The notes: generated by a model from the letters alone, not told the origin. DNA of 64,000 bases from Melioribacteraceae bacterium (GCA_034521465.1 JAXHMN010000012.1:24359-88358); one strand, 5' to 3'; positions 30,287 through 57,116 are shown, counted from the stretch's first letter. A program made the numbers and translations.

Positions 30287-30294
30287 TTGCTAAT

Positions 30295-30624: not shown

Positions 30625-30637
30625 TATCTCCGTTCAG

Positions 30638-31289: not shown

Positions 31290-31332
31290 TGTCAAAATAT
31301 TGACAGCAAACCTCTCACCTTCATCCTAAATT
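31290..31332 (+). promoter_or_regulatory. Palindromic operator TGTCAAAATATTGACA plus -10-like TAAATT (site P1)
   Basis: Palindrome 31290-31305, then 21 nt, then TAAATT 31327-31332. ATG of the downstream ORF is at 31370. Confidence 0.7.
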
Positions 31333-31369
31333 AGTTTTAGATTTTTCAATTACCCTAAAGGGAAACAGA

Positions 31370-31642
31370 ATGTCATTAAATTCAAAACAGAAAAAGGTTA
31401 TTTGGGCTGGATCATTAGTAGCCATTTTATCTTTAGTTGTTTGGTTCTTTACCGGTGGCGAAATATTTACTAAGACTCAAGTAATAGTTGAAAAGCATGA
31501 TGAACTTCTTGGTTCAACTTATAAAGAATGGCAGGATAAATTCATTCTTGGTTTAGACTATACTTTGGCATTCATTGCCGCAGTCTTTTTTATTTCGGTT
31601 ACTGCAATTATTTTATTGCGCGATAAGAAAAAAGAAAACTGA
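31370..31642 (+). CDS. Small two-TM membrane protein (hypothetical)
   Basis: 90 aa with two hydrophobic helices. AAAGGGA lies upstream of the ATG. First gene after operator P1. Confidence 0.4.
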   Translation: MSLNSKQKKVIWAGSLVAILSLVVWFFTGGEIFTKTQVIVEKHDELLGSTYKEWQDKFILGLDYTLAFIAAVFFISVTAIILLRDKKKEN

Positions 31643-31833
31643 ATAAAAGGATTTAATTATTACCTCCTTTTTTCAAATCGACCAATTGCCGACAATTTTA
31701 TAATAGAAAAATAGGCAGCCCACATATTGTCATCTTGATGGCAGTAAAAAATAAGTAGACTAAATATTTTAGTTACGGAAATGAATATGAAATTAACTTC
31801 GAAAAAAAATAAATTAATAATTGGAGGAAAGTT

Positions 31834-32391
31834 ATGTCACAATTCAAAATACACACAACAGAAACCGCACCGGAAGAATCAAAAGAATTGTTGCAAGGCG
31901 CAGAAAAGCAACTGGGATTTATCCCAAACTTATACGGAATAATGTCCGAAGCGCCTGCAGCATTAAACGCTTATAACGCCATTAGTCAAAATTTTGATTC
32001 ATCTTCGTTAAACTCAACGGAAAAGCAAGTTGTACTGCTTGCAACAAGTTTTGTTAATGAATGTCATTATTGTATGGCGGTACATTCAACGGTCGCACAA
32101 ATGCAGAAGATAGACGATGCAATTGTAAAGGCAATTAGAAACGGAGAAGCAATTGCCGATTCAAAATTAGAAGTACTGAGAAATTTTACTCAAACTGTTG
32201 TTGAAAAAAGAGGATGGATCTCGGAAGATGATGTTGAATCATTCTTATCTGCGGGATACACGAAAGCACAACTCTTGGAAGTGATTGTAGGAGTAGTTCA
32301 AAAGACTCTCAGCAATTACATTAACCATATTGTTAAAACTCCCCTCGATAAAGCATTCGAACCAAATAAGTGGGAAAAAGAAACAGTTTGA
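31834..32391 (+). CDS. Carboxymuconolactone decarboxylase / AhpD-like family protein
   Basis: GGAGG RBS. 'LLATSFVNECHYCMAVH' carries the CxxC motif of the AhpD-like fold. Confidence 0.85.
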   Translation: MSQFKIHTTETAPEESKELLQGAEKQLGFIPNLYGIMSEAPAALNAYNAISQNFDSSSLNSTEKQVVLLATSFVNECHYCMAVHSTVAQMQKIDDAIVKAIRNGEAIADSKLEVLRNFTQTVVEKRGWISEDDVESFLSAGYTKAQLLEVIVGVVQKTLSNYINHIVKTPLDKAFEPNKWEKETV

Positions 32392-32412
32392 AAAGTTTGT
32401 TTCCCAATTAAA

Positions 32413-32450
32413 CCTGCACAATTGTCAACTTATATTGTGCGGGTTTTTTT
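32413..32450 (+). terminator. Rho-independent terminator
   Basis: CCTGCACAAT (32413-32422) pairs with ATTGTGCGGG (32434-32443, one mismatch) and is followed by T7 (32444-32450). Confidence 0.8.
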
Positions 32451-32492
32451 GTTTCTTATCAGCTGTTAAGTGTTTTTCCAAAGTTTATCTAA

Positions 32493-32535
32493 TGTCAAAA
32501 TATTGACAGAAACCCCATCAACCGTCGCTTATCTT
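32493..32535 (+). promoter_or_regulatory. Palindromic operator TGTCAAAATATTGACA plus -10-like TATCTT (site P2)
   Basis: Palindrome 32493-32508, then 21 nt, then TATCTT 32530-32535. The yceI-like ATG is at 32598. Confidence 0.7.
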
Positions 32536-32597
32536 TAATTCAGAAATTAGAAAAAAAATCTATAACTCATCACAATAACAATCATAAAGGAGTAACA

Positions 32598-33227
32598 ATG
32601 AAAACATTTTCAAAACACGTAGTTTCTTTATTCTTACTATTAACCGTTGCACTCTCGGCTCAAACATTCACTGCTGATTCAGAGGACGGACGCAACCAAG
32701 CATCATTTACTTCCGATGCACCGTTTGAAAAAATTGTTGGTGTATCTAGCGGTTTAGATGCAACCGTGATGATCAACAAAGATGATATTACAAAATCGCC
32801 TAAAGGTATGGTAAAGGTTCCCATAGCAAATATAAAAACCGGTATCGATCTGAGAGATGAACACTTAAGAAGTAAAGATTGGTTGAATGCCGAAGAATAT
32901 CCGTATGCAGAGTTTCACTTAAAAGGAATTAAAAACCCCTCCTCTAAAAAATTAGTTGACGGGCAAAAAGTAAAAGCGACGCTCGTTGGTACATTTAGTG
33001 TACACGGGGTAAGCAAAGAAATTGAAGTTCCTGCTGAATTAACATATTTCGAAGAATCGGAAAGAACAAAAGCAAAAATGCCCGGTAATTTATTAGTTGC
33101 CAATGCAGATTTTAGTATCAAACTTTCTGACTTTGGAGTGGATGTACCTTCAATGGTAGTTGGAAAGGTAAGCGAAGAAGTTAAAATAACTACCAATTTT
33201 GTTGCAAGTGATGCAAATGGGGGATGA
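32598..33227 (+). CDS. YceI-family periplasmic (polyisoprenoid-binding-like) protein
   Basis: Signal peptide. 'SFTSDAPFEKIVGVS...IKTGIDLRDEHLRSKDWLNAEEYPYAEF...LVGTFSVHGVSKEI' is the YceI-like pattern. Confidence 0.85.
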   Translation: MKTFSKHVVSLFLLLTVALSAQTFTADSEDGRNQASFTSDAPFEKIVGVSSGLDATVMINKDDITKSPKGMVKVPIANIKTGIDLRDEHLRSKDWLNAEEYPYAEFHLKGIKNPSSKKLVDGQKVKATLVGTFSVHGVSKEIEVPAELTYFEESERTKAKMPGNLLVANADFSIKLSDFGVDVPSMVVGKVSEEVKITTNFVASDANGG

Positions 33228-33364
33228 ATCCTTGCGGAACTTGTAATCCTTGTGCTGCCGGAAACCCTTGCGAAATGAAGATGGAAAGCAAATGTAATCC
33301 TTGCTCAATGAAGAAAAGCAATCCTTGCAATCCGTGTGCGATGAAAAAAGATGGTAATTCATAA
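33224..33364 (+). CDS. 46-aa Cys-rich micro-protein with six N-P-C repeats
   Basis: Its ATG overlaps the yceI-like TGA (ATGA). Translation: MNPCGTCNPCAAGNPCEMKMESKCNPCSMKKSNPCNPCAMKKDGNS. The AAyCCnTGy units start at 33227, 33245, 33263, 33296, 33320 and 33329, all in one frame. Below the 60-aa cutoff of the ORF track. Confidence 0.5.
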   Translation: MNPCGTCNPCAAGNPCEMKMESKCNPCSMKKSNPCNPCAMKKDGNS

Positions 33365-33386
33365 AAAATTATAAAAAGCAATAAGA

Positions 33387-33482
33387 GGGTGACTCAAAAG
33401 TAAAGATATTGATATGGTTGGAACACAGATACCGCTAATTTTTACAGATTTTTTATTTGAATTTTACTTTTGAGACATCCCC
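33387..33482. repeat. Nested-palindrome intergenic repeat, copy E2
   Basis: CTCAAAAGTAAA (33393-33404) pairs perfectly with TTTACTTTTGAG (33463-33474), and the arms extend imperfectly (GGGTGA.../...ACATCCCC). The interior 'GAACACAGATACCGCTAATTTTTACAGATTTT' resembles 14831-14862. Confidence 0.65.
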
Positions 33483-33506
33483 GTCTTATTAAAATGGATT
33501 AAGAAA

Positions 33507-34187
33507 ATGAAAAGAAGACAATTTTTTAAAACCGGTTTTGTTTTGATTGCCGCCTTTGCGGCAAGCTCTAAATTGACGCTTGTTAACGCAGCAGAACAAA
33601 CTTCAAACTTTGTAAAAGATTATAAAGCAAAAATTCTAGAGATAATTAAAAATTTGAAAGCAGAAGGAACAAATCTGGTTACAAAAATAATGAACGAAAA
33701 GGAATATGAGTTTGATCCTTATACACACTATCCATACGATGGCGGTATTAAAGACGACTTAACCGGTTGCCAGTTATTTTTCCATGCTCACCGGGAAGAC
33801 GAATACGGACACTTTCATACATTCGCAACCGATGATGATGGAAAACTTGTTCATCTTGTTTTAATTTCTATGAATGAAAAGGGAGAGCTAATTGGACTTG
33901 CTACGGTTAATAGATGGGTGACCGGCGATAAATTTGTTAAAGCCGATAAATTAAAACAGCTTGCTTCTGATTTTTATATGGACCCTTCATTATATAAAGA
34001 TCAAAGGGTCATTCAATTTGTAAACAGCGTCTTCAAAGCATACCGCAACGAAATTGAAGCAATTTTTGACGAAAGGGATAAGTGGATAAATAATTATGCA
34101 AGAAAATACTACCGCGAACCATTTGAAGACAGAGATCACGAGATTCTCTCTCATAAAAAAGTTATTTTAGCTGATAACTCAAACTGA
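33507..34187 (+). CDS. Tat-signal exported protein (hypothetical)
   Basis: 'MKRRQFFKTGFVLIAAFAASS' is a twin-arginine signal. His-rich core 'FFHAHREDEYGHFHTF'. No family recognised. Confidence 0.5.
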   Translation: MKRRQFFKTGFVLIAAFAASSKLTLVNAAEQTSNFVKDYKAKILEIIKNLKAEGTNLVTKIMNEKEYEFDPYTHYPYDGGIKDDLTGCQLFFHAHREDEYGHFHTFATDDDGKLVHLVLISMNEKGELIGLATVNRWVTGDKFVKADKLKQLASDFYMDPSLYKDQRVIQFVNSVFKAYRNEIEAIFDERDKWINNYARKYYREPFEDRDHEILSHKKVILADNSN

Positions 34188-34479
34188 TCTGAAGCTATGT
34201 ATTAAACTGTCAATTGAGCTTCCCGCGATTGTAAATCTATTGGTTTTGAGTTGTTTGGTTTTATCAAAAGAAAAATTATGTAAAATAATGATCGGTTATA
34301 GTGAGTGCTATTATAACTTTAGTTACCTTACTTACTTTATATAGTTTTTCGTAATGTAATATTCAAAAAAAATCAGTTTGGTTTGGATTAAAAAATTGCC
34401 GCTATCTCCGGTTTATTCTTTAATAATAGTTTTGTCGTATTTATGCAAAGAGGTAAAAATTTGAAAAAGGAAGATTAGC

Positions 34480-35067
34480 ATGACAACAGCATCGTCAACA
34501 AGTGTATTATTCATTCCGGATATATCAGGGTTTTCAAAATTCGTTAATGATATGGAAATTCTTCACGGGCAAGAGATAACCGCTGAATTACTTGAAGAGA
34601 TAATTAATGCCGAGGAACTGGGATTTGAAATATCCGAAATCGAGGGAGACGCCGTACTTTTCTATAAAATTGGCGATCCAATTTCGATTGAGGAGATTTA
34701 TAACCAATCACTAAAAATTCTTCAGAGATTTCATAAGAAAAAATTGGAAGTTCAGGAAAAGCGTATCTGCGAATGTAACGCCTGCCAATCTGTTAATAAT
34801 TTAACACTCAAATTCATCCTTCATTTCGATAATATTGAATTGATTAACGTAAATCGATTTAAAAAACTTTACGGCAAAGGTGTGATTCTTGCTCATCGAT
34901 TGATGAAAAATGATGTTAAAGAAAAAGAGTATATAATATTTACTAAAAATTATCCCAACTCTGAAAAAACAAATAAAGAAATTTTTGAAGTCTGCCCGAT
35001 CAAACAGAACCTTGAAGGAATTGGAGATGTTGACTGCCAATATATTAAGCTGAATCTTCCAAACTAA
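34480..35067 (+). CDS. DUF2652-like protein (nucleotide cyclase-like fold)
   Basis: 'VLFIPDISGFSKFVNDMEILHGQEITAELLEEII...EIEGDAVLFYK' matches my recollection of the DUF2652 N-terminal pattern. Confidence 0.5.
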   Translation: MTTASSTSVLFIPDISGFSKFVNDMEILHGQEITAELLEEIINAEELGFEISEIEGDAVLFYKIGDPISIEEIYNQSLKILQRFHKKKLEVQEKRICECNACQSVNNLTLKFILHFDNIELINVNRFKKLYGKGVILAHRLMKNDVKEKEYIIFTKNYPNSEKTNKEIFEVCPIKQNLEGIGDVDCQYIKLNLPN

Positions 35068-35079
35068 ATAAACATAAAT

Positions 35080-37567
35080 ATGAATCCGATTAAAAAATAT
35101 TTCAATTGGCTGCAGAAAGATAATCCTACCGGCGAAGTAGAAAAGTATCCCGAAATTGATGAACATGGTGAAACATCTCTTAAGGGTGTTTACATTAGCG
35201 GTGATCTTACCGGCATTCCCTTATTAAAATTTGCGGCGGAAAACGGCAAGGAAGTTATTGATCGTTTTATGGCTGATGATGAATACAAAAAATTATTGAA
35301 GGAAAAATCATCCGAAGATGTCTATGATCTGATTATCATTGGCGCCGGTATTTCGGGCATATCTGCCGGACTGGAAGCGAAGAAGCACGATTTGAATTTT
35401 ACGATACTTGAGTCCTCCGAGAAGTTTCAAACAATTTGCAATTTTCCAAAAGGAAAACCGATATATGCCGAACCCGATGATCTTCACCAGAAAGCGGAAT
35501 TGAAAATCGATGACGGCACAAAGGAATCATTGCTCGATGATCTTCACTCACAAATACAAGGTACAGATCTTAATATTCATGAAGGTGTTGAAGTAAAAGA
35601 ACTCTCTCGTAAAGATAATTTAATAGAAATAAAAACGAATACTGAAACTTTTAAGTCGGCTAAGAGTTCTTCTGGCGATTGGTAAATCGGGCAATCCGCG
35701 TGAACTGAACGTACCGGGAAAAGATAAAGGAAAAGTCTTTAACAGGTTATTCGATCCTGAAGACGCCAAGGGAGAAAAAGTTTTGGTAGTGGGCGGAGGA
35801 GATTCGGCTCTTGAAACAGCAATTGCAACTTCGGAACATGCTGAATCAGTTACTTTCTCATACCGCGGTGACAGTTTCACCAGACCGAAAGAAAACAACA
35901 AAGAAAAATTAGAACAGCTTGTTAATGAAGGTAAAATTGATCTTCGTCTGGAAACAAATGTTAAAGAGATCAAAGATGATTCAGTAATTCTTGTTGATAA
36001 AGAGGGTAATGAAAAAGAATTTGAAAACACTGTCGTATTTACAATGCTCGGCCGCGAGCTGCCGGTAGAATTTTTTAAGCGAAGCGGAATTAAAATGGAA
36101 GGCGAGTTGTCGCTCACGGCAAAATTACAGTTTGCTCTTCTGTTACTCTTTTCCACCGTCCTCTATTTCGGAAAAAGCAGCGCTGATTTTTACGAAAGTT
36201 TTTTCGGTAAAGTCGATTCATGGGGAACAGTTTTTACTAGCATTTTCAGCGGAGAATTCTGGTATAAATTTATTTCACTTCCCGAAGTTCTCTTTTCCGC
36301 GTTGTTCTCGGATTCGGTTAGGATTTGGAACGTAACGAAGTATATTAATGCAACAATTGCCTACTTCTCGTTTATAGCATTTTTCCTGCTCGGAGTTTAC
36401 CTCCTATATAAATTTATACGGGATTATGCTCCCAAAATTAAATTAAACTGGCAGACATTCAAGTATGCGTATTTTATATCTCTCGGTATCTTCTTTGCAG
36501 TCATCTTTTTTGGCGGAAGATATTACGGTGTAGAGTTACTCGGAAAGTCGCAAGGATTTTGGTACACCGGTTTTTATTCGCTGACAATTTTATTATTCGG
36601 TCTCAGAAGGATGCATGTAAAACCTACGCGTTATATCAAACTTCAGACATGGACGTTAATCCTTATTCAAGCCCTTCCACTCTTTATATTACCCGAATTT
36701 ATTTTTCCTTTCTTGGGAAAAATAGGCGCGCTTGGCGGAGAAAACGGTTTCGTGTTTACTCAAGTTTTTCCTAAAGAAAGTTACTGGAGATCATACGGAT
36801 TTATTTTAGCTTGGCCTCTTAATTTTTATAATCTCTATAATTCCAATATCACAACTTTCTGGCTGGTCTTTAGTATCATTCAAACATTTGTGATTATTCC
36901 CTACATAGTTTATAGATGGGGCAAAGGCGCTTATTGCGGATGGATATGTTCATGCGGTGCTTTAGCGGAAACACTCGGCGATGAATATAGAACTCTTGCA
37001 CCACACGGACCAAAGGCGAAAAAATGGGAAAACTTTGGGCAGTGGGCGTTACTCGCAGCTTTTGTAATTACCGGGCTGAAATTAATTTCGGTTCTATATA
37101 ATATTCCAATTCCAATAATTAATGAAAAAGTTTCTTACGCAGCCGACTTTCTTCATAAATTCTATTATATCGGGATTGATGTAATCTTTGCCGGAGTGCT
37201 TGGCGTAGGCGTTTACTTTTTTATGAGCGGAAGAGTTTGGTGCCGTTTCGGATGCCCGCTTGCCGCTTGGATGCATATTGTAAATCGTTTTACACGTTAT
37301 AGAATATTTGCCGATAAGAAGAAATGTATCTCATGTAACATCTGTACGAAAGTTTGTCACATGGGAATTGATGTAATGAATTATGCAAACAAAGGTATCC
37401 CGATGAATGATGTTGAATGCGTCCGTTGTTCCGCATGCGTTGTTAATTGCCCGACCGATGTTCTATCATTTGGAAGTTTACCTAAAGCCGATCCCGATAA
37501 TGAACTATATAAAAAAATAGAAATACCTGTTCTTAATCATGATGATTGGAAAAGCGGATTAAGGTAA
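35080..37567 (+). CDS. FAD/NAD(P)-dependent pyridine-nucleotide-disulfide-type oxidoreductase fused to a polytopic membrane 4Fe-4S (polyferredoxin-like) domain; one apparent frameshift near 35655-35665
   Basis: 'YDLIIIGAGISGISAG' and (next frame) 'RVLLAIGKSGNPRELNVPGK...KVLVVGGGDSALE' are the two dinucleotide-binding motifs. ~8 TM helices follow. C-terminal 'CISCNICTKVC...CVRCSACVVNCP' are two 4Fe-4S ferredoxin motifs. Confidence 0.75.
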
Positions 37568-37570
37568 TCA

Positions 37571-39685: not shown

Positions 39686-39756
39686 TTATCAAAAACTATT
39701 TCAATCTGTCTATAAATTGACACAATAATCTTTCAAAGAATCATAAGTTTCAAATT

Positions 39757-40485: not shown

Positions 40486-40524
40486 GCAGTCATTCCATTT
40501 TTACATATTGATTGGGGAAATTAG

Positions 40525-41649: not shown

Positions 41650-41658
41650 GAGGGGAAT

Positions 41659-43001: not shown

Positions 43002-43016
43002 AAACTAAAAATTGAT

Positions 43017-43910
43017 ATGAACATAACTCATCCCAAACTAAAAATAGATTCACTCGACAATTTGTGGTTTCAAGTAAGCGGTACAATATGCAATATCGCT
43101 TGCAAACACTGCTTTAATAATTCGAGTCCGACTAACAGAAATTTCGGATTTCTCACACTTGCAGAATGCGAAAGCTATTTAGAAGAATCAGTTGAATTGG
43201 GAGTAAAAGAATATTACTTCACCGGTGGCGAGCCATTTGCGAACAAAGAAATGATTCAAATTATTGAGAAAACTTTGGAATACGGACCCGTAACCGTATT
43301 GACAAACGGAATGCTAATCAACGAAGAGAAAGCAAAACGTTTGGCGAAGATAGAAAGTAAAACGATCTTCTCATTAGAAATGCGCGTAAGTCTCGACGGT
43401 TTCACAGAAGAAATGAACGATGAAATTCGAGGAAAAGGTGTTTTCAAAAAGACGATGATCGGTGTGGAAAATCTTTATCGTCACGGATTTTTACCGATTA
43501 TAACAGTAACTAAAACTTGGAATGATTCCGAAGACGAAAAAGTAATGAACGGCTTTCGCGATCTGCTTATTTCCCACGGTTATCTTCGTCCACGAATTAA
43601 AATTCTGCCATCATTAAAAATCGGAAAAGAAGCAGTTCGGACAAAAGGTTATGATAAGTATGAATACATAACCGAGGAAATGATGAATGGTTTCGATGAA
43701 GATCAGTTGCTCTGCTCAAACAGCCGTTTGGTCACGAGCAAAGGTGTTTATGTCTGCCCAATATTAATTGAATCGGACGATGCAAAAGTTGGTGATGATC
43801 TTCCGGGTTCGATGAAACCTTACGAGCTAAAACATCAAGCATGTTACACTTGCTATCTTTACGGCGCTATCTGTTCTAACTTTTCAACAAGCGCAAGGGA
43901 GGAATTATGA
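43017..43910 (+). CDS. Radical SAM enzyme with a C-terminal Cys-rich (SPASM/twitch-like) region
   Basis: CxxxCxxC in 'GTICNIACKHCFN', 'YFTGGEPF', 'RGKGVFKKT'. C-terminal 'CSNSRLVTSKGVYVCP...HQACYTCYLYGAICSN'. Confidence 0.8.
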   Translation: MNITHPKLKIDSLDNLWFQVSGTICNIACKHCFNNSSPTNRNFGFLTLAECESYLEESVELGVKEYYFTGGEPFANKEMIQIIEKTLEYGPVTVLTNGMLINEEKAKRLAKIESKTIFSLEMRVSLDGFTEEMNDEIRGKGVFKKTMIGVENLYRHGFLPIITVTKTWNDSEDEKVMNGFRDLLISHGYLRPRIKILPSLKIGKEAVRTKGYDKYEYITEEMMNGFDEDQLLCSNSRLVTSKGVYVCPILIESDDAKVGDDLPGSMKPYELKHQACYTCYLYGAICSNFSTSAREEL

Positions 43911-44694
43911 GTGTAAAACTTGCATTGATCGGTGGAGTTTATAATAATTATATCGCACTTGATGAAGCAGTAAAAGATGCGAAGAAAAAAGGAGTCGATG
44001 AAATATTTTGTCTCGGCGATCTCGGCGCATTCGGTCCGCATCCCGATAGAGTTTTTCCGATTCTTCATGAAAATAATGTTAAAGTTATTCAAGGTAATTA
44101 TGATCATTCGGTCGGCAACGGATTTGGATGATTGCCAATGCGGTTATACCGATCCGCGCGATAACTACTATGCTAAACTCAGCTATGATTATACGTTTCA
44201 GAAATACTTCCGATGAACAAAATAAAATGTGGTTAAAAGAACTTCCGAAGGAAATTAGATTTGAAATTGATGATAAAAAAATTCTTCTGTGTCACGGTTC
44301 TCCGAGAAGAACAAACGAATTTTTATGGGAATCAACAACTTCAAATCACTTTCTTAATAAAATGTTTAATGAATATGATGCGGATATAATTATCGGCACT
44401 CACACCGGCATTCATTGGGACAGACAGATTGAAGATAAACTTTTTGCAAATGTCGGAGTAATCGGCAGACCAGAAAATAACGGCGAAACTTATGTCGGTT
44501 ATTCAATTCTCGAGCTAGAAAAAAATAATGCCAAGATAGAATATATCCCATTTGAATATGATCATACCCGGCTTGGAAAGGAAATGAAAAAAGAAAAAAT
44601 TCCCGAACCTTTTATCGAAACAATACTAACCGGTTGGTGGACGACGTGCTTGGAAGTACTTCCCGCAAAGGAAAGAATTCGTGGAAAGTTTTAG
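43907..44694 (+). CDS. Metallophosphoesterase (YfcE/Metallophos_2-like); two apparent frameshifts (about 44115-44130 and about 44195-44205)
   Basis: 'LALIGGVYNNY...IFCLGDLGAFGP...VIQGNYDH', then 'LDDCQCGYTDPRDNYYAKLSYDYTF' in a second frame, then 'LLCHGSPRR...IIGTHTGIHW' in a third. Overlaps the radical SAM stop by 4 nt. Confidence 0.8.
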
Positions 44695-44734
44695 TATTAT
44701 AGATTTCTGTTTTCCCAAATATAGAGCGTAAAAG

Positions 44735-45430
44735 ATGCTTCAAGAAAAAAGAATAGTTGTAATAATTCCGGCGGTAAATGAAGAAGAATCAATCACGAAT
44801 GTGCTACAAGACATTCCCGGCTTTGTAGATGAAATTATTGTTGTTGATAACGGATCGAGTGACAACACCGCAAAAATCGCAAGTGAAAACGGAGCAACGG
44901 TTTTAACGGAAAATGAAAGGGGATACGGCGCTGCTTGTTTGAAAGGAATTGAACTTATAAAAAGTAAAAATTATGATATTGTCGTTTTTCTAGACGGCGA
45001 TTACAGCGATCATCCCGAAGAAATGAATTTGATTATGAAGCCAATTATAAACGACGATTATGATATGGTAATCGGTTCCCGGATGATCGGTCACAGACAA
45101 AAAGGTGCAATGCTTCCGCAGGCATTGTTCGGCAATTGGCTTGCTGCGTTTTTAATCAAATTATTTTGGAAGTATAAGTTCACCGATCTCGGTCCTTTTA
45201 GAGCAATTAAATATGATTCATTAATGAAATTGAATATGGCAGACCGCAATTTTGGCTGGACTGTTGAAATGCAGATAAAAGCGGCAAAACAAAAATTGAA
45301 ATGCACTGAAGTTCCGGTAAGCTATAGAAAAAGAATCGGCACCTCAAAAGTTACCGGCACGTTCTCCGGTACAATAAAAGCTTCCTACAAAATTCTTTAC
45401 CTAATTTTTGTAAGTCTTCTCAAACATTAA
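44735..45430 (+). CDS. GT2 glycosyltransferase (polyprenol-phosphate sugar synthase-like)
   Basis: 'VVIIPAVNEEESI...IIVVDNGSSDNT...VVFLDGDYSDHPEE...VIGSR'. Confidence 0.85.
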   Translation: MLQEKRIVVIIPAVNEEESITNVLQDIPGFVDEIIVVDNGSSDNTAKIASENGATVLTENERGYGAACLKGIELIKSKNYDIVVFLDGDYSDHPEEMNLIMKPIINDDYDMVIGSRMIGHRQKGAMLPQALFGNWLAAFLIKLFWKYKFTDLGPFRAIKYDSLMKLNMADRNFGWTVEMQIKAAKQKLKCTEVPVSYRKRIGTSKVTGTFSGTIKASYKILYLIFVSLLKH

Positions 45431-45466
45431 TTTATTCCTTCAAAAAAGCATCAGCCAGCCACAATT

Positions 45467-45509
45467 GTCAAAATGTTGACAGTTAGGAAACTATCTGAGC
45501 TATATCTTT
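45467..45509 (+). promoter_or_regulatory. Palindromic operator TGTCAAAATGTTGACA plus -10-like TATCTT (site P3)
   Basis: Palindrome 45467-45482, then 21 nt, then TATCTT 45504-45509. Downstream ATG at 45539. Confidence 0.7.
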
Positions 45510-45538
45510 TGTTCTAAAAGTAAAAGGGTATATCAACG

Positions 45539-46459
45539 ATGAAAAAAATAATAACTTTAACTGCATTAGTAATTATAATTTTTAGTGCCGGGTTTATGTT
45601 CTTGACCAAAAACACAGAAGTCAACAAAGAACAAATCGCAATTGAGTACAATTTTTCTAAAGAGTTCAAAAATTATTGGCTGGCGGGAAAAGCCGAACTT
45701 TCATCTTACGAATTATCAAAAGCACGGTACGGTGAAATTCATTCCGGTGAAGCAGTTTTGGTTTTTGTTGTCGAACCTTTCTTGCCAATAGAGCAAGTGA
45801 AGAGTGACGGATTCCCTTCGGATGAAAAATCTGAAAGAGTTATGAAACTTATAAACTCGCAGCATTTTTATACCGGAATTTATCCTTATTCGATAATGAC
45901 TTCATCCTTTTACCCACTTAACAAAAATAGAAACGGCGTTTTGAAAATCAGTATGTCGAGCCAAGATTGGTGCGGTCAAGTATATTCGCAGATCAATGAC
46001 CGGGATGATTACTTCGAAGTTCGGAGATATTCTTACTTCCAGAATGAGGGTGATGAAAAATTAAATTTAGAAAAAGGACTGACCGAAGAGGAACTTTTTA
46101 CCAAAGCAAGGTTGGAACCCAAAAATTTACCGGTTGGAAAATTATCGCTTTATCCCTCAGTAGAATATTTCAGATTGACGCACACTGAAATAGATATGTA
46201 TTCGGCAGAAGCTTCTTTAATCAAAAATGAAGAGGAATCTCTCTACAAAATTGAATACAAGAATATTGACCGTGAACTTATAATACGATTTGCAAATGAT
46301 TTTCCGCATTATATTCTAGGGTGGGAAGAAACCTATTCCGATTTTTCCGGCAAGCGGTTAACTTCGACCGCGCAATTAAAGAAAAGTATTCAATTAGATT
46401 ACTGGCAATTTAATTCAGCAAAGGATTCAACTTACAGGCAATTACTAGCATTAAAATAA
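45539..46459 (+). CDS. Exported/anchored hypothetical protein
   Basis: 306 aa with an N-terminal hydrophobic segment. No family recognised. Directly behind operator P3. Confidence 0.45.
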   Translation: MKKIITLTALVIIIFSAGFMFLTKNTEVNKEQIAIEYNFSKEFKNYWLAGKAELSSYELSKARYGEIHSGEAVLVFVVEPFLPIEQVKSDGFPSDEKSERVMKLINSQHFYTGIYPYSIMTSSFYPLNKNRNGVLKISMSSQDWCGQVYSQINDRDDYFEVRRYSYFQNEGDEKLNLEKGLTEEELFTKARLEPKNLPVGKLSLYPSVEYFRLTHTEIDMYSAEASLIKNEEESLYKIEYKNIDRELIIRFANDFPHYILGWEETYSDFSGKRLTSTAQLKKSIQLDYWQFNSAKDSTYRQLLALK

Positions 46460-46461
46460 TA

Positions 46462-47796
46462 TCATTTTTCATCAAAGCCCTCTGAGATTCTCGGGATTGC
46501 AATAAATGAATTCCGGGAATCTTTTTTATTTAGAATGAACCAAAATTCATAGAGCAGCAAAATTATGACAGGAATATACTCGATCAATAAAATAATAGTA
46601 TTTTCATCCCAAACATTTTCCAACTGATAAATCATTACCGTATAAAATGTAATCGAGATAAGTGAGATATAGCTTATTCCACTTAATTTAGGATTAACAA
46701 CCAATAGAACAATGAGCCATGCAGCATACCAAGGATGAACGACAGGTGAGCAAAGAAGAAAAAACATCAATGAATAGAAAAGTGACGAGAAAACATCTTT
46801 ATTGTATCGAAGCAGCACTAGGTAAATGAGTATAAACAGAATAAGCAGGATAAACCGAATAACAAATGTGTCATTCAAAAAGACTGTTAACAAATTGAAC
46901 GCAGCGCCATTAAAACTCCAATGCCGTGAATAATTTATTAATGTCTCAAATGGATTTGCGGTAAACGAAAAAGGTATAAAACTTACAGCCAGTAAAATAA
47001 TTGGAATAACAAGCCATTTTAATTTGTCTTTCATTTCCTTTTCGTAAAAAAAGAAAATTGGAATTGCGATCATAAACGTCGGCTTAACTATTAACGAAGC
47101 GCCGAGAAATAAAGCGGCAAATATTTTTTGCTCTTTAAAAAAGTAAATTGAATAGAGGAATAAAGCCATACCAAGTATATCAATGTGAGCATCAATGAAG
47201 AATTGATAAAAAACCAAAGGACTCAAAACATAAAGCAAAACATATTTATTATTGATTTGATTTTTTTTAAGAAGCAAAAAGAAACCGAAGGTCAATAAAA
47301 TATCCGATAAAATCATTATGACTTTCAAACCCCAAATACTCTCACCGCCAATTAAATAAACAAATGCAAATACAGCTTGCGAAAGTGGAAAATAAATTGT
47401 TTTTATATCAGGGTAAGTAACTTCTTTAGGAAGTAATTCGGAATGTAAGTGACTTAACGATTCGGAGTTGGGTGGAAACTGAAAGGGATTAATACCGTTG
47501 ACTAAAACTTTACCATCCCATAAATATCTGTAATAATCATCAGACCCAACCGGTAATATCTCCATCGAAAATATCTTAAAGAGAAAAAAAAATGTCGTGA
47601 TCCAAAAGATATATTTTAATTCAACTTCTACTTTGTAAAGGATTAATGCGCACACGAGATAAAGTATTGAAGCAGATGAAATAGTAAAAAAGTAACTCTC
47701 GATACTCCGGTCGATGAAAACGAACCATGCATAATTGAGAATTATTATTGCGGCAAAAATGAATAGCAGATATTTTTTATTTAACAGCAATTTCAT
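46462..47796 (-). CDS. Polytopic GT-C-type glycosyltransferase-like membrane protein (DUF2029/MptB-like)
   Basis: ~12 TM helices. The first loop 'PVGSDDYYRYLWDGKVLVNGINPFQFPP' resembles the S-x-D-x3-Y...G-x-NPY loop of polyprenol-phosphate-dependent mannosyltransferases. Confidence 0.55.
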   Translation of the reverse strand: MKLLLNKKYLLFIFAAIIILNYAWFVFIDRSIESYFFTISSASILYLVCALILYKVEVELKYIFWITTFFFLFKIFSMEILPVGSDDYYRYLWDGKVLVNGINPFQFPPNSESLSHLHSELLPKEVTYPDIKTIYFPLSQAVFAFVYLIGGESIWGLKVIMILSDILLTFGFFLLLKKNQINNKYVLLYVLSPLVFYQFFIDAHIDILGMALFLYSIYFFKEQKIFAALFLGASLIVKPTFMIAIPIFFFYEKEMKDKLKWLVIPIILLAVSFIPFSFTANPFETLINYSRHWSFNGAAFNLLTVFLNDTFVIRFILLILFILIYLVLLRYNKDVFSSLFYSLMFFLLCSPVVHPWYAAWLIVLLVVNPKLSGISYISLISITFYTVMIYQLENVWDENTIILLIEYIPVIILLLYEFWFILNKKDSRNSFIAIPRISEGFDEK

Positions 47797-47807
47797 GTCT
47801 TACAGAT

Positions 47808-47850
47808 TGTCAATATATTGACAAAAGAACTTATTTATTAAAAGTAAATT
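47808..47850 (+). promoter_or_regulatory. Palindromic operator TGTCAATATATTGACA plus -10-like TAAATT (site P4)
   Basis: Palindrome 47808-47823, then 21 nt, then TAAATT 47845-47850. It faces the + strand gene at 48044. The minus-strand ATG (47796) is only 11 nt from the palindrome, so that gene is not served by it. Confidence 0.65.
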
Positions 47851-48043
47851 GTAAAACAAAGATAGAAGAAATTATATTGAAAAATCAGGATGATAAGATG
47901 AATGGTAATTCAAATACAACTTACCCTGCTTCTTTAGTTGAACCGGAGAATGAAAAGATTGTTTGGATGATAAACAGTGATGCGGCTGCTTTGTTGAATA
48001 CGAGTGCAAAAAAGTAATCTATTTATATAAAAAGGAAAAAATA

Positions 48044-49178
48044 ATGAATAAAATATTTCTGCTAGGTTTAATATTCTCAACATTAATATGGGGTCAAATG
48101 AAAAATCCCAAAAATATTCCTTTCAATTGGAAAACCGATACGACACAAACAATAATTGATCTATCTGAATTATCGGTTGTGCTACCGCGCGGAAGTTTTC
48201 AAGTTTTGAATTACCCTAAATTTATTGGCAAAGAAAAAGGATTAGGCGAATATTTCAAAAGAGAACCCGTAATGGCTGTAGAAATTGACGGCAATGCAAA
48301 AGCTTATCCGCTGAATGTTCTTTCGATTCACGAAATTGCTAATGATACGTTAGAGGGTAATCCTATACTTGCAACATTTTGCCCGCTATGTAATTCCGGA
48401 ATTGTTTTTGACAGACAGTTGAATCACAACGGGAAAGAGTATCTTCTTGATTTTGAAGTCTCAGGAATGCTGCGCAAAAGTGATATGGTGATGGCAGATA
48501 AACAAACAGAAACTTGGTGGCAGCAATTACTGGGAAAAGGAATTGTTGGTGAACTAGCCGGTGTTGAGTTGGACATAATCCCATCACTAATAATTTCGGT
48601 AAAAGAATTCTTTGATCGTTTTCCAGACGGGCAAATATTATCGAAAGAGTCGGGCAACCTTAAAGCACAGCAAGCTTACGGCAAAAATTATTACGAGAAT
48701 TACGACAGTGAGGATGGTAAACCTTACGGAAGATTTTTTGATGAAGATGATTTAGATTCCCGTCTGCCTCCGATGGAGCGAATTGTTGACATCAGAAGTC
48801 AAGGTGAATTTAAGGTTTATCCGTTTTCGGTCATTAAGGAGAAAGGGGTCATAAACGATGAGTTTAACGGAAAAAATGTTGTGTTGTTTTATCAATCCGG
48901 AGTTGTATCCGTTTTAGATAAGAAAGATATTTCAGAGTCAAAAGATATTGGCACTGCTACTGTTTTTAATTCTATGCTGGATGGAGAAGTCTTAACAGTT
49001 ACAAAACAGGTTGATGATCAAGTTTATTGATATTAATACAAATTCAAATTGGGATATAACCGGTAGATGTATTAGTGGTAAATTAAATGGCAAGCAACTT
49101 GAAATAGAACCTCACGGAAATCACTTTGCATTTGCTTGGCTGGCATTTAATCCAAATACAAAAATATATGGACAGTGA
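48044..49178 (+). CDS. DUF3179-domain protein (paralog 1); apparent frameshift near 49015-49025
   Basis: Signal peptide and 'YPLNVLSIHEIANDTLEGNPILATFCPLCNSGIVFDR'. The C-terminus 'INTNSNWDITGRCISGKLNGKQLEIEPHGNHFAFAWLAFNPNTKIYGQ' is readable in the next frame. Confidence 0.75.
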
Positions 49179-49332
49179 TTCAGTTTGGTATTGTAGTATA
49201 AACCAATTGTAAATTGCGTTAAGATACTGCGTCATAATTACACTTGAATATTGTAAAATAAATCTTACTTTCGGATTTACGGTAATTTTACAGACAGAGT
49301 AATTTTATAATAATATTTGCAAAGGAGTTGAG

Positions 49333-49797
49333 ATGAAGAAATACATTTTATTTACCGTGTTTATAATTGTTTTGCAGTTTAGCTTAATCGCTCAAACTAA
49401 AACTGAAAGTAAAGTAATTAAAAAAGAACAAACTTCGGAGGCGCTTACTATGCAAAACGAATCGGATCAGCTTGTAATTCTTTGGACATCCGGCGATCCT
49501 GATGTCGCAATTAAAATGGTCTTTATGTATGCAAAGGGTTCTATGAAAAATGATTGGTGGAAATCAATTAATCTTATTATTTGGGGACCATCATCCAAAT
49601 TAACAAGTGAGAACGAACAGATACAAAATGAAATTAAGGAAATGCAAAAATTAGGAATTGTTGTTGAAGCTTGTAAAGCTTGTGCAGATCAATACGGTGT
49701 GGCAGATAAGTTAGAAGATCTTGGAATAGATGTAAAATATATGGGCGAACCGCTAACCGATTTTATTAAATCTGATGCGAAGGTTGTTACTTTTTAA
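49333..49797 (+). CDS. DsrE/DsrF-like family protein with signal peptide
   Basis: 'LVILWTSGDPDVAIKMVFMYA...WGPSSKL...VVEACKACADQYGV' resembles the DsrE-like fold family. GGAG RBS. Confidence 0.6.
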   Translation: MKKYILFTVFIIVLQFSLIAQTKTESKVIKKEQTSEALTMQNESDQLVILWTSGDPDVAIKMVFMYAKGSMKNDWWKSINLIIWGPSSKLTSENEQIQNEIKEMQKLGIVVEACKACADQYGVADKLEDLGIDVKYMGEPLTDFIKSDAKVVTF

Positions 49798-50068
49798 TTG
49801 CATTAATTTAATGAGCCGACAAATTAGAATTTTGCAACTATTTCAGCATAGTTGAATAATCAATAGATTATATAACTAAGAGTTTTGAATATTACGTTGC
49901 AGAATTAAAAGAAACGCTAAAATAATCCGAAGAAATAACCGTCTTTTTCAAAGAATTACATCCCAATATCAATTACTTCCCACTGATATTAAATCTCTAA
50001 TTCAATACTGAATTTTTTCCGATAGAAATATTAGTTCCCAATTTCTACCCCTGTAATTACGATGCGAT

Positions 50069-50111
50069 TGTCAAAATGTTGACAGTTTCGCTGCCCGCCT
50101 CAATTTATCTT
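50069..50111 (+). promoter_or_regulatory. Palindromic operator TGTCAAAATGTTGACA plus -10-like TATCTT (site P5)
   Basis: Palindrome 50069-50084, then 21 nt, then TATCTT 50106-50111. Downstream ATG at 50240. Confidence 0.7.
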
Positions 50112-50239
50112 TACATTAAAATTGCGGAAGCAAACCTATTAAAGCATTCAAAACTTTGAAGAATGTTTTAAGAAGAAAGATGCCCCAAAACAATAGAGAC
50201 TGGAAATAATTTTTTCAATTTGATAGAAAGAAGCGAGTG

Positions 50240-51196: not shown

Positions 51197-51205
51197 GAGG
51201 ATAAA

Positions 51206-55818: not shown

Positions 55819-55880
55819 AAGTTTTTTAGATGAAATATAAAAAGGTATTCCGGTTTTCACTGTCAACTTTAAGACATAGA

Positions 55881-57019: not shown

Positions 57020-57116
57020 ATAAATACAATGTTGATAATCGGACGGGAGGTGTTGTATTTCTTTCCGGTCTGTATTATATTCGTGTTAACTCAATTAACA
57101 CGAAATTGGATTATAT

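What the first reader, a model, noticed from the sequence alone, without database searches (positions are those of the whole stretch)
31290..50111. Five-promoter regulon defined by TGTCAA-N4-TTGACA at a fixed class II (about -41.5) position
The 16-bp palindrome TGTCAAAAT(A/G)TTGACA (TGTCAATATATTGACA at the fourth site) occurs at 31290-31305, 32493-32508, 45467-45482, 47808-47823 and 50069-50084. All five copies are intergenic and face a + strand gene. In all five I counted exactly 21 nt between the last A of TTGACA and a -10-like hexamer (TAAATT at P1 and P4; TATCTT at P2, P3 and P5). A 21-nt spacer is too long for TTGACA to act as the -35 box. Instead the dyad centre lies 29.5 nt upstream of the hexamer, about -41.5 if the hexamer is -12..-7. 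That is the geometry of class II Crp/Fnr-activated promoters, and the 5-6-5 form TGTCA-N6-TGACA is a one-base variant of the CRP half-site TGTGA. Downstream units are a 90-aa membrane protein (possibly with an AhpD-like gene), YceI plus the NPC micro-ORF, an unknown 306-aa exported protein, DUF3179 paralog 1, and an outer-membrane barrel plus DUF3179 paralog 2. A Crp/Fnr-family gene (55881-56571) is the only in-window candidate regulator. Its recognition helix reads SRQTVNY where E. coli CRP has SRETVGR. Neither the effector nor the physiological signal can be read from the sequence. The cargo (YceI, AhpD-like, Cys-rich peptide, DsrE-like neighbour) hints at redox, sulfur or metal stress.
Basis: partly seen in the sequence, partly recalled or inferred. 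Interest (0 to 1): 0.8.

Follow-up and report, generated by a model that had tools for sequence, protein, structure and literature searches.

The report
Conserved Crp-type redox-defence regulon promoters
A 16-base palindrome sits at one fixed distance in front of at least seven promoters in this Melioribacteraceae (Ignavibacteria) genome piece and is almost certainly the docking site of the neighbouring Crp-family regulator. The same regulator, site and spacing recur in other Ignavibacteria and in some Bacteroidota, in front of thiol/peroxide-defence genes, so this is a solid new regulon of a familiar kind.

Summary
TGTCAA-N4-TTGACA occurs five times exactly (0 expected by chance). Each copy is intergenic, faces a + strand gene, and is followed by 21 nt and then TAnnTT. 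The third site is off by one (45466-45481).

There are two more weaker copies with the same geometry: 39707 (+) and 55876-55861 (-). The second starts 4 nt after the stop codon of the Crp/Fnr gene and faces a thioredoxin-like/AhpD-like operon.

The window comes from a Melioribacteraceae MAG. In 133 kb of related contigs retrieved by protein only, 10 of 14 palindromes have TAnnTT at exactly 21 nt (P about 1e-14). The crp ortholog is always directly followed by a site.

The regulator's recognition helix (SRQTVNY) is invariant. Its Arg-Gln pair is the one CooA has, and CooA binds TGTC...GACA sites. Flavobacteriaceae carry a 37-40% identical ortholog next to the same motif and spacing.

Cargo is mostly CxxC/UxxC-type redox proteins (Trx-like, AhpD-like, peroxiredoxin, OsmC, YceI, DUF3179), an arsenosugar-type gene cluster and a cyclase-like DUF2652.

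The most likely mechanism is class II-type activation by a Crp-family dimer. The effector is unknown. This is a new member of a known kind, of moderate interest.

The parts
31290..31332 (+). Promoter P1. Palindrome TGTCAAAATATTGACA (31290-31305), 21-nt spacer, TAAATT (31327-31332). Conserved A at 31341. Faces the 90-aa membrane protein ORF (31370).
32493..32535 (+). Promoter P2. Palindrome TGTCAAAATATTGACA, 21 nt, TATCTT (32530-32535). Faces YceI (32598).
   Evidence: The orthologous YceI promoters keep only the palindrome and the hexamer.
39707..39749 (+). Probable extra promoter. TGTCTATAAATTGACA (1 mismatch), 21 nt, TAAGTT. The ATG of the DUF2064/TIGR04282-like ORF (39757) lies 7 nt after the hexamer, so the leader is nearly absent.
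   Evidence: Conservation could not be checked at the orthologous position.
45466..45508 (+). Promoter P3. TGTCAAAATGTTGACA, 21 nt, TATCTT. Faces the 306-aa exported protein of unknown family (45539).
47808..47850 (+). Promoter P4. Perfect palindrome TGTCAATATATTGACA, 21 nt, TAAATT. Faces DUF3179 paralog 1 (48044) across a leader of about 185 nt. The palindrome is also about 11 nt upstream of the ATG of the divergent 444-aa membrane protein gene (46462-47796, -).
50069..50111 (+). Promoter P5. TGTCAAAATGTTGACA, 21 nt, TATCTT. Faces the MetA-like outer-membrane barrel (50237) and DUF3179 paralog 2 (51206).
55834..55876 (-). Promoter of the Trx_3/AhpD-like operon. TGTCTTAAAGTTGACA (55876-55861, 2 mismatches in the distal half), 21 nt, TATATT (55839-55834). 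The palindrome starts 4 nt after the crp stop codon.
   Evidence: The equivalent site is at the same place in L001, L004, L005, L006 and L008.
55881..56571 (-). Candidate regulator: a Crp/Fnr-family gene (cNMP_binding + HTH_Crp_2). It is 229 aa once one extra A in the run at 56484-56486 is removed. Recognition helix: SRQTVNY.
55594..55818 (-). Cargo: Thioredoxin_3 protein of 74 aa with a CxxC motif (HCDAC).
   Evidence: Orthologs are 74-89 aa.
55030..55587 (-). Cargo: CMD/AhpD-like 'peroxidase-related enzyme' (TIGR01926).
31370..32391 (+). Cargo of P1: the 90-aa membrane protein (31370-31642) and a CMD/AhpD-like protein (31834-32391).
   Evidence: Orthologs sit in motif-headed operons.
32598..35067 (+). 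Cargo of P2: YceI (32598-33227), its frameshifted NPC-repeat Cys-rich tail (33224-33364) and DUF6969 (33507-34187). The cyclase-like DUF2652 (34480-35067) follows after a 292-nt gap.
   Evidence: DUF2652 is directly under a site in L052 and L128.
45539..46459 (+). Cargo of P3: 306-aa protein with an N-terminal signal/anchor and no family match.
48044..49178 (+). Cargo of P4: DUF3179 paralog 1 (CPLC motif). Its C-terminal end (49011-49178) is in another frame.
50237..52273 (+). Cargo of P5: outer-membrane barrel (Phenol_MetA_deg) and DUF3179 paralog 2.
   Evidence: The same gene pair follows a site-headed operon in L004.

Best explanation
The palindrome TGTCAA-N4-TTGACA (read as TGTCA-N6-TGACA) is the operator of a conserved, uncharacterised subfamily of Crp/Fnr regulators. 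In this window the regulator is encoded at 55881-56571.

Proposed mechanism: a dimer binds with its dyad centre 29.5 bp upstream of the first base of a TAnnTT(T) -10/-7-type element. This is the position of a class II CRP/FNR activator. These promoters have no -35/-33 box of their own at a usable distance. The bound dimer therefore most likely recruits RNA polymerase and switches the promoters on.

At least seven promoters in the window belong to the regulon. One of them starts 4 nt after the regulator's own stop codon.

The regulon is conserved across Ignavibacteria and, with a 37-40% identical regulator, in Flavobacteriaceae. The same motif and spacing also precede homologous cargo in other Bacteroidota.

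The cargo is dominated by thiol/selenol-type redox proteins, so the likely physiological role is defence against oxidative, thiol-reactive or metalloid stress.

Shown: the sites, their spacing, their conservation, the synteny with the regulator, and the invariant Arg-Gln helix. Inferred: binding by this protein, activation rather than repression, and the signal. The effector is unknown. The pocket keeps the Gly-Glu and Arg residues that bind an anionic ligand in CRP.
For: 1. Five exact sites against 0 expected. All have a 21-nt spacer followed by TAnnTT.

2. In 132,637 bases of loci retrieved only through proteins (L001, L004-L006, L008, L128, L132), 10 of 14 palindromes with at most 1 mismatch have TAnnTT at exactly 21 nt. 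Eleven hexamers fall at 21 nt and no other spacing has more than 2. Binomial P = 1.2e-14.

3. One palindrome in L005 serves two divergent promoters, each at 21 nt. This fits a symmetric dimer.

4. Flanks and spacers are unrelated between sites.

5. The crp - Trx_3 - CMD synteny, with a site 4 nt after the crp stop, holds in 5 of 5 Ignavibacteria contigs and in the window. In Flavobacteriaceae the crp-like gene lies within about 100 nt of a site, either divergent from the regulated gene (Salegentibacter, Gramella) or, in Salinimicrobium, with the site just upstream of crp and facing the opposite-strand gene.

6. The helix LTACSRQTVNY is invariant in 113 orthologs. Arg-Gln is kept in the flavobacterial and intermediate groups. 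R. rubrum CooA has SSRQTTST and binds TGTCGGC-NN-GCCGACA (PMC545781).

7. The protein is a true Crp-type fold relative. Its best solved relatives are M. tuberculosis Crp, GlxR, NtcA and CAP.

8. A genome-collection scan for motif + N21 + TAnnTT, truncated at 119 loci, returned about 14 Ignavibacteria loci and several Bacteroidota loci with homologous cargo: DUF3179, DUF547, a TIGR04283-like glycosyltransferase and a T9SS protein.

9. No sigma-70 -10 lies 16-18 nt from any of the five TTGACA boxes.

10. A conserved A lies 9 nt after the hexamer in 9 of 11 independent sites and 6 of 7 window sites.
Against: 1. No binding, transcription-start or expression data exist.

2. Activation is inferred only from position and from the lack of a -35/-33 box. 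The normal promoter architecture of Ignavibacteria could not be derived from the sequence held.

3. The regulator gene in this window carries a frameshift. If the frameshift is real, the regulon would have no regulator here. Several other genes in the window are also frameshifted, which points to assembly error.

4. The crp-proximal sites in L001 and L004 have CATATT/GATTTT instead of TAnnTT.

5. No site was found upstream of crp itself.

6. In several Bacteroidota hits the regulator is not within the 8 kb held, so co-occurrence there is untested.

7. The residue after the pocket Arg differs between groups (RTD in Ignavibacteria, RKE in Flavobacteriaceae). This weakens a cyclic-nucleotide reading.
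Confidence: 0.72

Rival explanations
1. Same site and same (or another) dimeric regulator, but acting as a repressor. The bound protein would occlude polymerase at promoters that are otherwise constitutive, and stress would release it.
For: Crp/Fnr proteins can repress as well as activate; PMC545781 predicts both modes for HcpR. The P4 palindrome lies about 11 nt upstream of the start codon of the divergent 444-aa gene, a position that would suit repression of that gene. In the FCB group the -7 element alone can drive transcription (own knowledge of Bacteroides promoters, not tested here).
Against: A repressor has no need for one exact helical phase. Operators normally scatter over the -35 to +10 region, yet here 21 nt is kept in nearly all sites across phyla. 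The palindrome does not overlap the TAnnTT element or the predicted start. The TTGACA half cannot serve as a -35/-33 box at this spacing. Using one palindrome for two divergent promoters at identical spacing is typical of activators.
Confidence: 0.15
2. The palindrome is bound by a regulator of another family (for example the TetR gene at 57117 or an unlinked factor), and the linkage to crp is coincidental.
For: A TetR gene lies next to crp in the window and near cargo genes in L001. No binding data exist.
Against: TetR is absent from the other crp neighbourhoods. In the window it has its own separate palindrome at 57080-57104. The only gene always adjacent to a site is crp, in six Ignavibacteria contigs and three Flavobacteriaceae. 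The 5-6-5 layout, 16-bp core and class II spacing are those of Crp/Fnr sites. The Arg-Gln helix matches the TGTC half-site as in CooA.
Confidence: 0.07
3. The conserved pair TTGACA ... TAnnTT is the -35/-10 of an alternative sigma factor, and the upstream half of the palindrome is incidental.
For: The spacing between two conserved boxes is fixed. A partner-switching module (SpoIIE-type phosphatase, STAS, anti-sigma kinase) lies just upstream at 28361-31042.
Against: Both halves of the palindrome are equally conserved; per-position information content is symmetric. The palindrome works in both orientations in L005. A 21-nt spacer is longer than that of known sigma-70-family promoters (established knowledge). 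The partner-switching module is not linked to the regulon in the other loci.
Confidence: 0.04
4. The palindrome is a dispersed repeat (REP/MITE-like) with no regulatory role.
For: There are several identical 16-mers within 19 kb.
Against: Nothing beyond the 12 specified bases and the hexamer is similar between copies. Every exact copy is intergenic and oriented toward a gene. Copies are conserved upstream of orthologous genes in other families and phyla.
Confidence: 0.01

Closest known systems
E. coli CRP (CAP) at class II promoters (site centred at -41.5, e.g. galP1)
   Same: Domain architecture is the same: cNMP-binding fold plus HTH_Crp. Solved CAP structures match at E about 1e-18. The site is a 16-bp core palindrome in 5-6-5 layout. 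Exactly 21 nt separate the core from the -10 element, so the helical phase relative to polymerase is the same. Arg at the first helix contact and the pocket residues Gly-Glu ... Arg-Thr ... Ser are kept.
   Different: The half-site is TGTCA, not TGTGA. The helix reads RQTVNY, not RETVGR. It scores far below the NCBIfam CRP equivalog cut-off (79.9 against 266). The effector is unknown. The cargo is redox defence, not catabolism. The -10 element is the FCB-type TAnnTT(T).
CooA (CO-sensing Crp/Fnr activator of Rhodospirillum rubrum and Desulfovibrio)
   Same: It has the same Arg-Gln pair in the recognition helix (SSRQTTST in 1ft9). Its palindrome has the same outer bases TGTC...GACA (TGTCGGC-NN-GCCGACA; PMC545781). 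It acts as an activator from a site overlapping the -35 region (own knowledge).
   Different: The inner half-site bases differ (GGC against AA). CooA is a haem protein that controls coo operons. Here there is no sign of coo genes, only weak sequence similarity to CooA (E = 3e-7 to 1ft9), and a different cargo.
FNR / FixK / Dnr group (TTGAT-N4-ATCAA at -41.5)
   Same: It belongs to the same protein family and has the same class II geometry. The palindrome is 16 bp with a 4-bp centre.
   Different: The half-site is inverted in sense (TCAA...TTGA inside TGTCAA-N4-TTGACA). There is no N-terminal Cys cluster; the protein has only two Cys, neither N-terminal. It scores below the Fnr model cut-off (51.4 against 228).
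Crp-family stress regulators SdrP (Thermus thermophilus) and DdrI (Deinococcus)
   Same: These are Crp-family proteins that control oxidative-stress and stationary-phase genes (own knowledge; a T. thermophilus Crp-family protein, TTHA1359, is the subject of PMC8465061, listed).
   Different: They recognise TGTGA-type sites and belong to other phyla. No orthology is shown: Thermus Crp-family structures match at only about E = 5e-7.
Crp/Fnr regulators already studied in the FCB group: Bacteroides MalR/BT4338 and Porphyromonas HcpR
   Same: They belong to the same superphylum and family. An earlier metatranscriptome study placed Ignavibacteria Crp/Fnr homologs near MalR (PMC8510549).
   Different: That study searched with a Bacteroides MalR matrix and does not mention a TGTCA or TTGACA motif (0 occurrences of either). 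HcpR is a haem-based NO sensor (PMC12750200) and is not among the close solved relatives.

Membership tests
Crp/Fnr-family regulon (regulator plus palindromic operator) | The regulator has an N-terminal cNMP-binding-type beta-roll and a C-terminal Crp-type helix-turn-helix. | tested here: met
   PF00027 5.5e-21, PF13545 5e-11, PF00325 2.3e-6. The best solved relatives are Crp, GlxR, NtcA and CAP.
Crp/Fnr-family regulon (regulator plus palindromic operator) | The operator is a two-fold symmetric site with a 16-bp core (5-6-5 or 6-4-6). | tested here: met
   TGTCAA-N4-TTGACA in the window and relatives. Information content is symmetric.
Crp/Fnr-family regulon (regulator plus palindromic operator) | The protein binds the operator. 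| not testable with these tools
   Support is indirect only: synteny in nine or more genomes and the Arg-Gln helix shared with CooA.
Class II (overlapping -35) activator-dependent promoter | The site centre is about 41.5 bp upstream of the start, meaning 21 nt between the 16-bp core and the -10 hexamer. | tested here: met
   A 21-nt spacer is present in 7 of 7 window sites and 10 of 14 independent sites. Start sites are not mapped. The conserved A 9 nt after the hexamer would give -43.5.
Class II (overlapping -35) activator-dependent promoter | There is no functional -35 element of its own, and transcription depends on the activator. | tested here: inconclusive
   No conserved box occurs in the spacer and no sigma-70 pairing at 16-18 nt. 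The lineage's normal promoter layout could not be derived. Dependence on the activator is not testable here.
cAMP receptor protein proper (CRP equivalog) | It matches the curated CRP model and recognises TGTGA half-sites. | tested here: not met
   NF008732 scores 79.9 bits against a cut-off of 266. The half-site is TGTCA.
cAMP receptor protein proper (CRP equivalog) | The cyclic-nucleotide phosphate-binding cassette is present (Gly-Glu ... Arg-Ser/Thr-Ala, plus Thr/Ser on the C-helix). | tested here: inconclusive
   FGEM...ERTD and FSER are conserved in Ignavibacteria. Flavobacterial orthologs have RKE. Ligand binding cannot be tested.
FNR (oxygen sensor) | An N-terminal cysteine cluster for a [4Fe-4S] centre is present. 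| tested here: not met
   The protein has only two Cys (in LICA and in TACSRQ), and none is N-terminal. NF008365 scores 51.4 against a cut-off of 228.
CooA (CO sensor) | Haem ligands are present and the regulator is linked to coo genes. | not tested
   No coo genes occur in any neighbourhood. Haem ligands were not examined. Only the helix and half-site resemblance was tested.
Dispersed intergenic repeat (REP/MITE) | Copies share sequence beyond a short core and have no fixed relation to genes. | tested here: not met
   Only the 12 core bases and TA..TT are invariant. All copies face genes at a fixed promoter spacing.

The most novel reading that the evidence does not exclude
The regulator would be a second-messenger (cyclic nucleotide) or thiol-switch sensor that acts as a master switch for a thiol/selenol redox-defence programme across the Fibrobacteres-Chlorobi-Bacteroidetes superphylum.

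Its regulon would include its own signal generator, the DUF2652 protein predicted to be a class III nucleotide cyclase. It would also include the so-called arsenosugar (TIGR04282/TIGR04283/radical SAM) pathway. This would give a positive-feedback cNMP circuit for oxidative or metalloid stress in a group where cyclic-nucleotide signalling is barely known.

Supporting hints:
- DUF2652 sits directly under a site in L052 and L128 and follows P2 cargo in the window (PMC4886424).
- The pocket Gly-Glu/Arg is conserved, and one Cys is invariant in both ortholog groups.
Probability: 0.15. Interest if true: 0.7.

Novelty: new member of a known kind. Interest (0 to 1): 0.5.

Why it matters
This assigns a DNA motif, a promoter geometry, a regulator and a conserved set of target genes to a Crp/Fnr subfamily. 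That subfamily is 73-90% conserved across the best 120 Ignavibacteria homologs found, has orthologs in marine Flavobacteriaceae, and has no described function.

It links many 'domain of unknown function' genes into one stress programme: DUF3179, DUF6969, DUF6789, DUF547, DUF2652, YceI with an NPC-repeat tail, and the TIGR04282/04283 cluster. That gives each of them a testable physiological context.

The orthologs occur in cultivable genera (Salegentibacter, Christiangramia/Gramella, Gillisia, Rosettibacter, Melioribacter), so the predictions can be tested directly.

It also gives a clean natural example of the Arg-Gln helix pairing with TGTC half-sites outside CooA.

Tried and rejected
1. Exact-protein look-ups of window proteins found nothing. 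The organism was identified through the homology search instead.

2. I tried to derive the normal -35/-10 spacing of the lineage from 138 non-coding upstream regions. No peak appeared, so the result is uninformative.

3. Rfam on the whole window gave no hit. The long leaders of P4 and P5 are therefore not known riboswitches.

4. The sigma-70 consensus scan was at chance level and found no partner for the five TTGACA boxes. I rejected the idea that TTGACA is a -35 box.

5. DUF2652 against solved structures gave nothing significant. Its cyclase-like nature rests on PMC4886424 only.

6. The metagenome search with DUF2652 gave only four loci. One close relative has a site; the distant ones have none.

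7. Literature searches for the motif, for Ignavibacteria Crp and for flavobacterial Crp/oxidative stress found no description of this regulon.

8. I considered the hits of the genome scan in Desulfobacter-type and other genomes. They lie inside ORFs of about 450 aa or lack related cargo, so I set them aside as chance or unrelated.

9. I considered in-frame TGA (selenocysteine) as the cause of split genes. The splits examined (crp, YceI/NPC tail) are frame changes, not in-frame stops.

10. Structure prediction was not run. It would not identify the effector or prove binding.

Full report
**Observation**

An exact search for TGTCAANNNNTTGACA finds five copies, at 31290, 32493, 45466, 47808 and 50069. 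All are on the + strand. No shuffle of the window gave any match.

I recounted the spacers from the printed sequence. Each copy is followed by exactly 21 nt and then TAAATT or TATCTT. All five lie between ORFs and face a + strand ORF.

Allowing two mismatches gives 11 hits against 5.3 expected. Two of the extra hits have the full geometry:
- 39707 (+): TGTCTATAAATTGACA-N21-TAAGTT, in the gap before the ORF at 39757.
- 55876-55861 (-): TGTCTTAAAGTTGACA-N21-TATATT.

The other four extra hits are intragenic and lack the hexamer.

An ungapped alignment of the seven sites has invariant columns only in TGTC, A, TTGACA and TA..TT. They are therefore not copies of a repeat element.

No sigma-70-type -10 lies 16-18 nt from any of the five TTGACA boxes. 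Sigma-70-like matches in the region are at chance level.

**Organism and regulator**

The Crp/Fnr ORF at 55881-56492 continues upstream to an ATG at 56571 in another frame. One extra A in the run at 56484-56486 separates the two parts. Removing it gives 229 aa, the length of the orthologs.

A homology search gives an exact match to a 'Melioribacteraceae bacterium' MAG protein. It also gives more than 100 orthologs at 73-90% identity from Ignavibacteria.

The protein has cNMP_binding and HTH_Crp_2 domains. Its closest solved relatives are M. tuberculosis Crp, GlxR, NtcA and E. coli CAP. It reaches no curated NCBIfam equivalog.

In 113 orthologs the stretch LTACSRQTVNY is invariant. So are FGEM and the Arg of the ligand pocket.

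**Related loci**

I fetched five distinct Ignavibacteria contigs through the protein alone: L001, L004, L005, L006 and L008. All show the order crp - Thioredoxin_3 - CMD/AhpD-like.

Nearby lies a convergent string drawn from peroxiredoxin, DUF6969, a 114-aa protein, YceI, CMD, an 88/90-aa membrane protein and DUF6789. Some contigs add OsmC, YjeF_N or DUF3179.

In every one of them a copy of the palindrome (0-2 mismatches) starts 4 nt after the crp stop codon and faces Thioredoxin_3, exactly as at 55876 in the window. Further copies head the YceI, CMD, OsmC and DUF6789 operons.

In L005 one palindrome serves two divergent promoters, each with TAnnTT at 21 nt.

I then took only loci that were ascertained by protein (132,637 bases, adding L128 and L132). 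Of 14 palindromes with at most one mismatch, 10 have TAnnTT at exactly 21 nt. Eleven hexamers fall at 21 nt and no other spacing from 8 to 39 has more than two. The background frequency of TAnnTT is 0.0103, which gives P = 1.2e-14.

Orthologous YceI promoters from four genomes share only the palindrome and the hexamer.

**Promoter type**

The hexamer is most often TAAGTT or TATnTT, usually followed by T. An A lies 9 nt after it in 9 of 11 independent sites and 6 of 7 window sites.

This resembles the TAnnTTTG '-7' element of Bacteroidetes promoters (my own knowledge, not tested here). It suggests the start is that A.

- With the hexamer numbered -12..-7, the dyad centre is -41.5.
- With the A as +1, the centre is -43.5.

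Relative to the -10 element the geometry is that of an E. coli class II CRP site. There the core spans -49..-34 and the hexamer -12..-7, which leaves 21 nt between them.

The TTG of the proximal half-site is 24 nt from TA. That is too far to act as a -33/-35 box. Nothing else in the spacer is conserved except a G/A right after TTGACA.

I could not derive the lineage's normal promoter spacing from the sequence held.

**Link between helix and half-site**

CRP reads TGTGA with R180, E181 and R185 (established knowledge). Here the helix is R-Q-T-V-N-Y and the half-site is TGTCA.

R. rubrum CooA has SSRQTTST at the same place (1ft9). It binds TGTCGGC-NN-GCCGACA (PMC545781). The Arg-Gln pair therefore goes with TGTC in a characterised relative.

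The Arg-Gln pair is kept in all ortholog groups found: SRQTV, NRQEV and TRQSV.

**Wider distribution**

I scanned one genome per species for motif + N21 + TAnnTT.

Many hits are chance matches, or lie inside ORFs of about 450 aa in Desulfobacter-type genomes. About 14 loci are Ignavibacteria with regulon genes.

Several Bacteroidota loci carry the motif upstream of homologous cargo:
- Salegentibacter: a 37% identical crp-like gene divergent from an EgtD-like histidine methyltransferase.
- Salinimicrobium: a crp-like gene next to a cluster of FMN reductase, CMD, peroxiredoxin and DUF3179.
- Saprospiraceae: DUF3179.
- Marinoscillum: a TIGR04283-like glycosyltransferase.
- Cytophagales: DUF547.
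- Chitinophagales: a T9SS protein orthologous to one under a site in an Ignavibacteriales contig.

The flavobacterial subfamily also occurs in Gillisia and Gramella/Christiangramia. In Gramella the site TGTCGTAAAGTTGACA-N21-TATTTT lies between crp and the EgtD-like/FMN-reductase/DoxX operon.

**Cargo and likely role**

Window cargo comprises:
- a 90-aa membrane protein and a CMD/AhpD-like protein;
- YceI with an NPC-repeat Cys-rich tail, DUF6969 and DUF2652;
- a TIGR04282/TIGR04283 'arsenosugar-type' cluster with DUF547 and a radical SAM enzyme;
- a 306-aa exported protein;
- two DUF3179 proteins (CPLC motif) and an outer-membrane barrel;
- Thioredoxin_3 and a peroxidase-related CMD protein.

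DUF3179, AhpD-like and DsrE-like proteins are listed as selenoprotein families with UxxC/CxxU motifs, and thioredoxin-like and peroxiredoxin proteins are named among the prominent selenoproteins (PMC9312934). They are therefore redox proteins.

Together with peroxiredoxin, OsmC, an NDH-2-type oxidoreductase and an ergothioneine-type methyltransferase in relatives, this points to defence against oxidative, thiol-reactive or metalloid stress. This is an inference from gene content.

**Effector**

The effector is unknown. The pocket keeps Gly-Glu, Arg-Thr and a C-helix Ser as in CRP. Flavobacterial orthologs have Arg-Lys-Glu instead. One Cys (LICA) is invariant in both groups.

DUF2652 has been predicted to be a class III nucleotide cyclase-like protein (PMC4886424). 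It sits directly under a site in L052 and L128. This is a hint of a cyclic-nucleotide loop, nothing more.

**Comparison with what is known**

No paper in the library describes this motif or regulon. An earlier study placed Ignavibacteria Crp/Fnr homologs near MalR and searched with a MalR matrix (PMC8510549).

The system works like a class II CRP/FNR/CooA activator. [quoted passage not shown]

**Verdict**

The regulon is larger than reported (at least seven promoters here) and much more widely conserved.

It is a new member of a known kind, well suited to experimental test, and of moderate interest.

**Caveats**
- There are no binding, start-site or expression data.
- Activation is inferred from geometry alone.
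- The genome scan was truncated.
- The regulator gene is frameshifted in this assembly, as are several other genes, so this is probably assembly error.

Noticed in passing
window 56786-56929: A 144-bp element with perfect 17-nt terminal inverted repeats (ATGAGGCTGTCTCAAAA / TTTTGAGACAGCCTCAT) lies in the crp-tetR intergenic region. As RNA it folds into a closed three-hairpin structure: -68.2 kcal/mol, z = -8.1 against shuffles. It is a single copy in the window and absent from all fetched loci. There is no Rfam match apart from a chance-level hit. It could be a MITE or an unknown structured RNA.
   Followed up: partly
window 57080-57104: An inverted repeat TTCGTGTTAA-N5-TTAACACGAA lies 12 nt upstream of the ATG of the TetR-family gene (57117-57692). 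It is a likely TetR operator and is distinct from the Crp-type palindrome.
   Followed up: no
window 56484-56486, 33224, 35685-35783, 43907-44131, 49011, 53131: Several genes are split by frame changes. They are: crp, YceI and its NPC tail, the Pyr_redox/4Fe-4S protein (intact at 828 aa in L128), a metallophosphoesterase, DUF3179 paralog 1, and a Rieske/glutamate-synthase-like protein. The pattern suggests homopolymer errors in the assembly rather than pseudogenes.
   Followed up: partly
window 33224-33364: A 46-aa Cys-rich ORF is made of Asn-Pro-Cys repeats (NPCGTCNPCAAGNPC...). In an Ignavibacteriales contig (PFVB01000004: L099) the same repeat is the C-terminal tail of YceI. A periplasmic YceI with a thiol-rich tail hints at metal(loid) or sulfur binding.
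   Followed up: partly
window 34480-45430: A long co-directional cluster runs through this stretch. It contains: DUF2652 (cyclase-like), a Pyr_redox + 4Fe-4S protein, a TIGR04283/TIGR04282 fusion, DUF547, a second TIGR04282-like protein, a phosphate-porin-like protein, a 424-aa transporter-like protein, a radical SAM enzyme, a metallophosphoesterase and a GT2. It is related to the 'arsenosugar biosynthesis / rSAM-selenodomain' gene set. In another genome the set starts with an ArsM-like methyltransferase under a Crp-type site.
   Followed up: partly
window 47796-47823: The P4 palindrome lies only about 11 nt upstream of the start codon of the divergent 444-aa polytopic membrane protein gene (46462-47796, -). 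The same bound regulator could therefore also affect that gene.
   Followed up: no
window 47851-48043 and 50112-50236: The leaders after P4 (about 185 nt, containing a 46-aa TTG-start ORF) and P5 (about 120 nt) are unusually long. The other promoters have leaders of about 7-55 nt. There are no Rfam hits.
   Followed up: no
window 28361-31042: A partner-switching module lies immediately upstream of P1. It comprises a Cache-HAMP-SpoIIE phosphatase, a STAS anti-anti-sigma protein and an HATPase_c_2 anti-sigma kinase. It is not linked to the regulon in the other loci.
   Followed up: no
L005 16777-16792: A single palindrome is shared by two divergent promoters: TAGTTT toward a PagL gene and TAAGTT toward the DUF6789 operon. 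Each hexamer is at exactly 21 nt.
   Followed up: yes
L012, L044, L049, L072, L089, L110, L117, L123: In Desulfobacter-type and Thermodesulfobacteriota genomes the scan pattern falls inside a recurring ORF of about 450-458 aa. This suggests a conserved or mobile gene that happens to encode the pattern. It is unrelated to the regulon.
   Followed up: no
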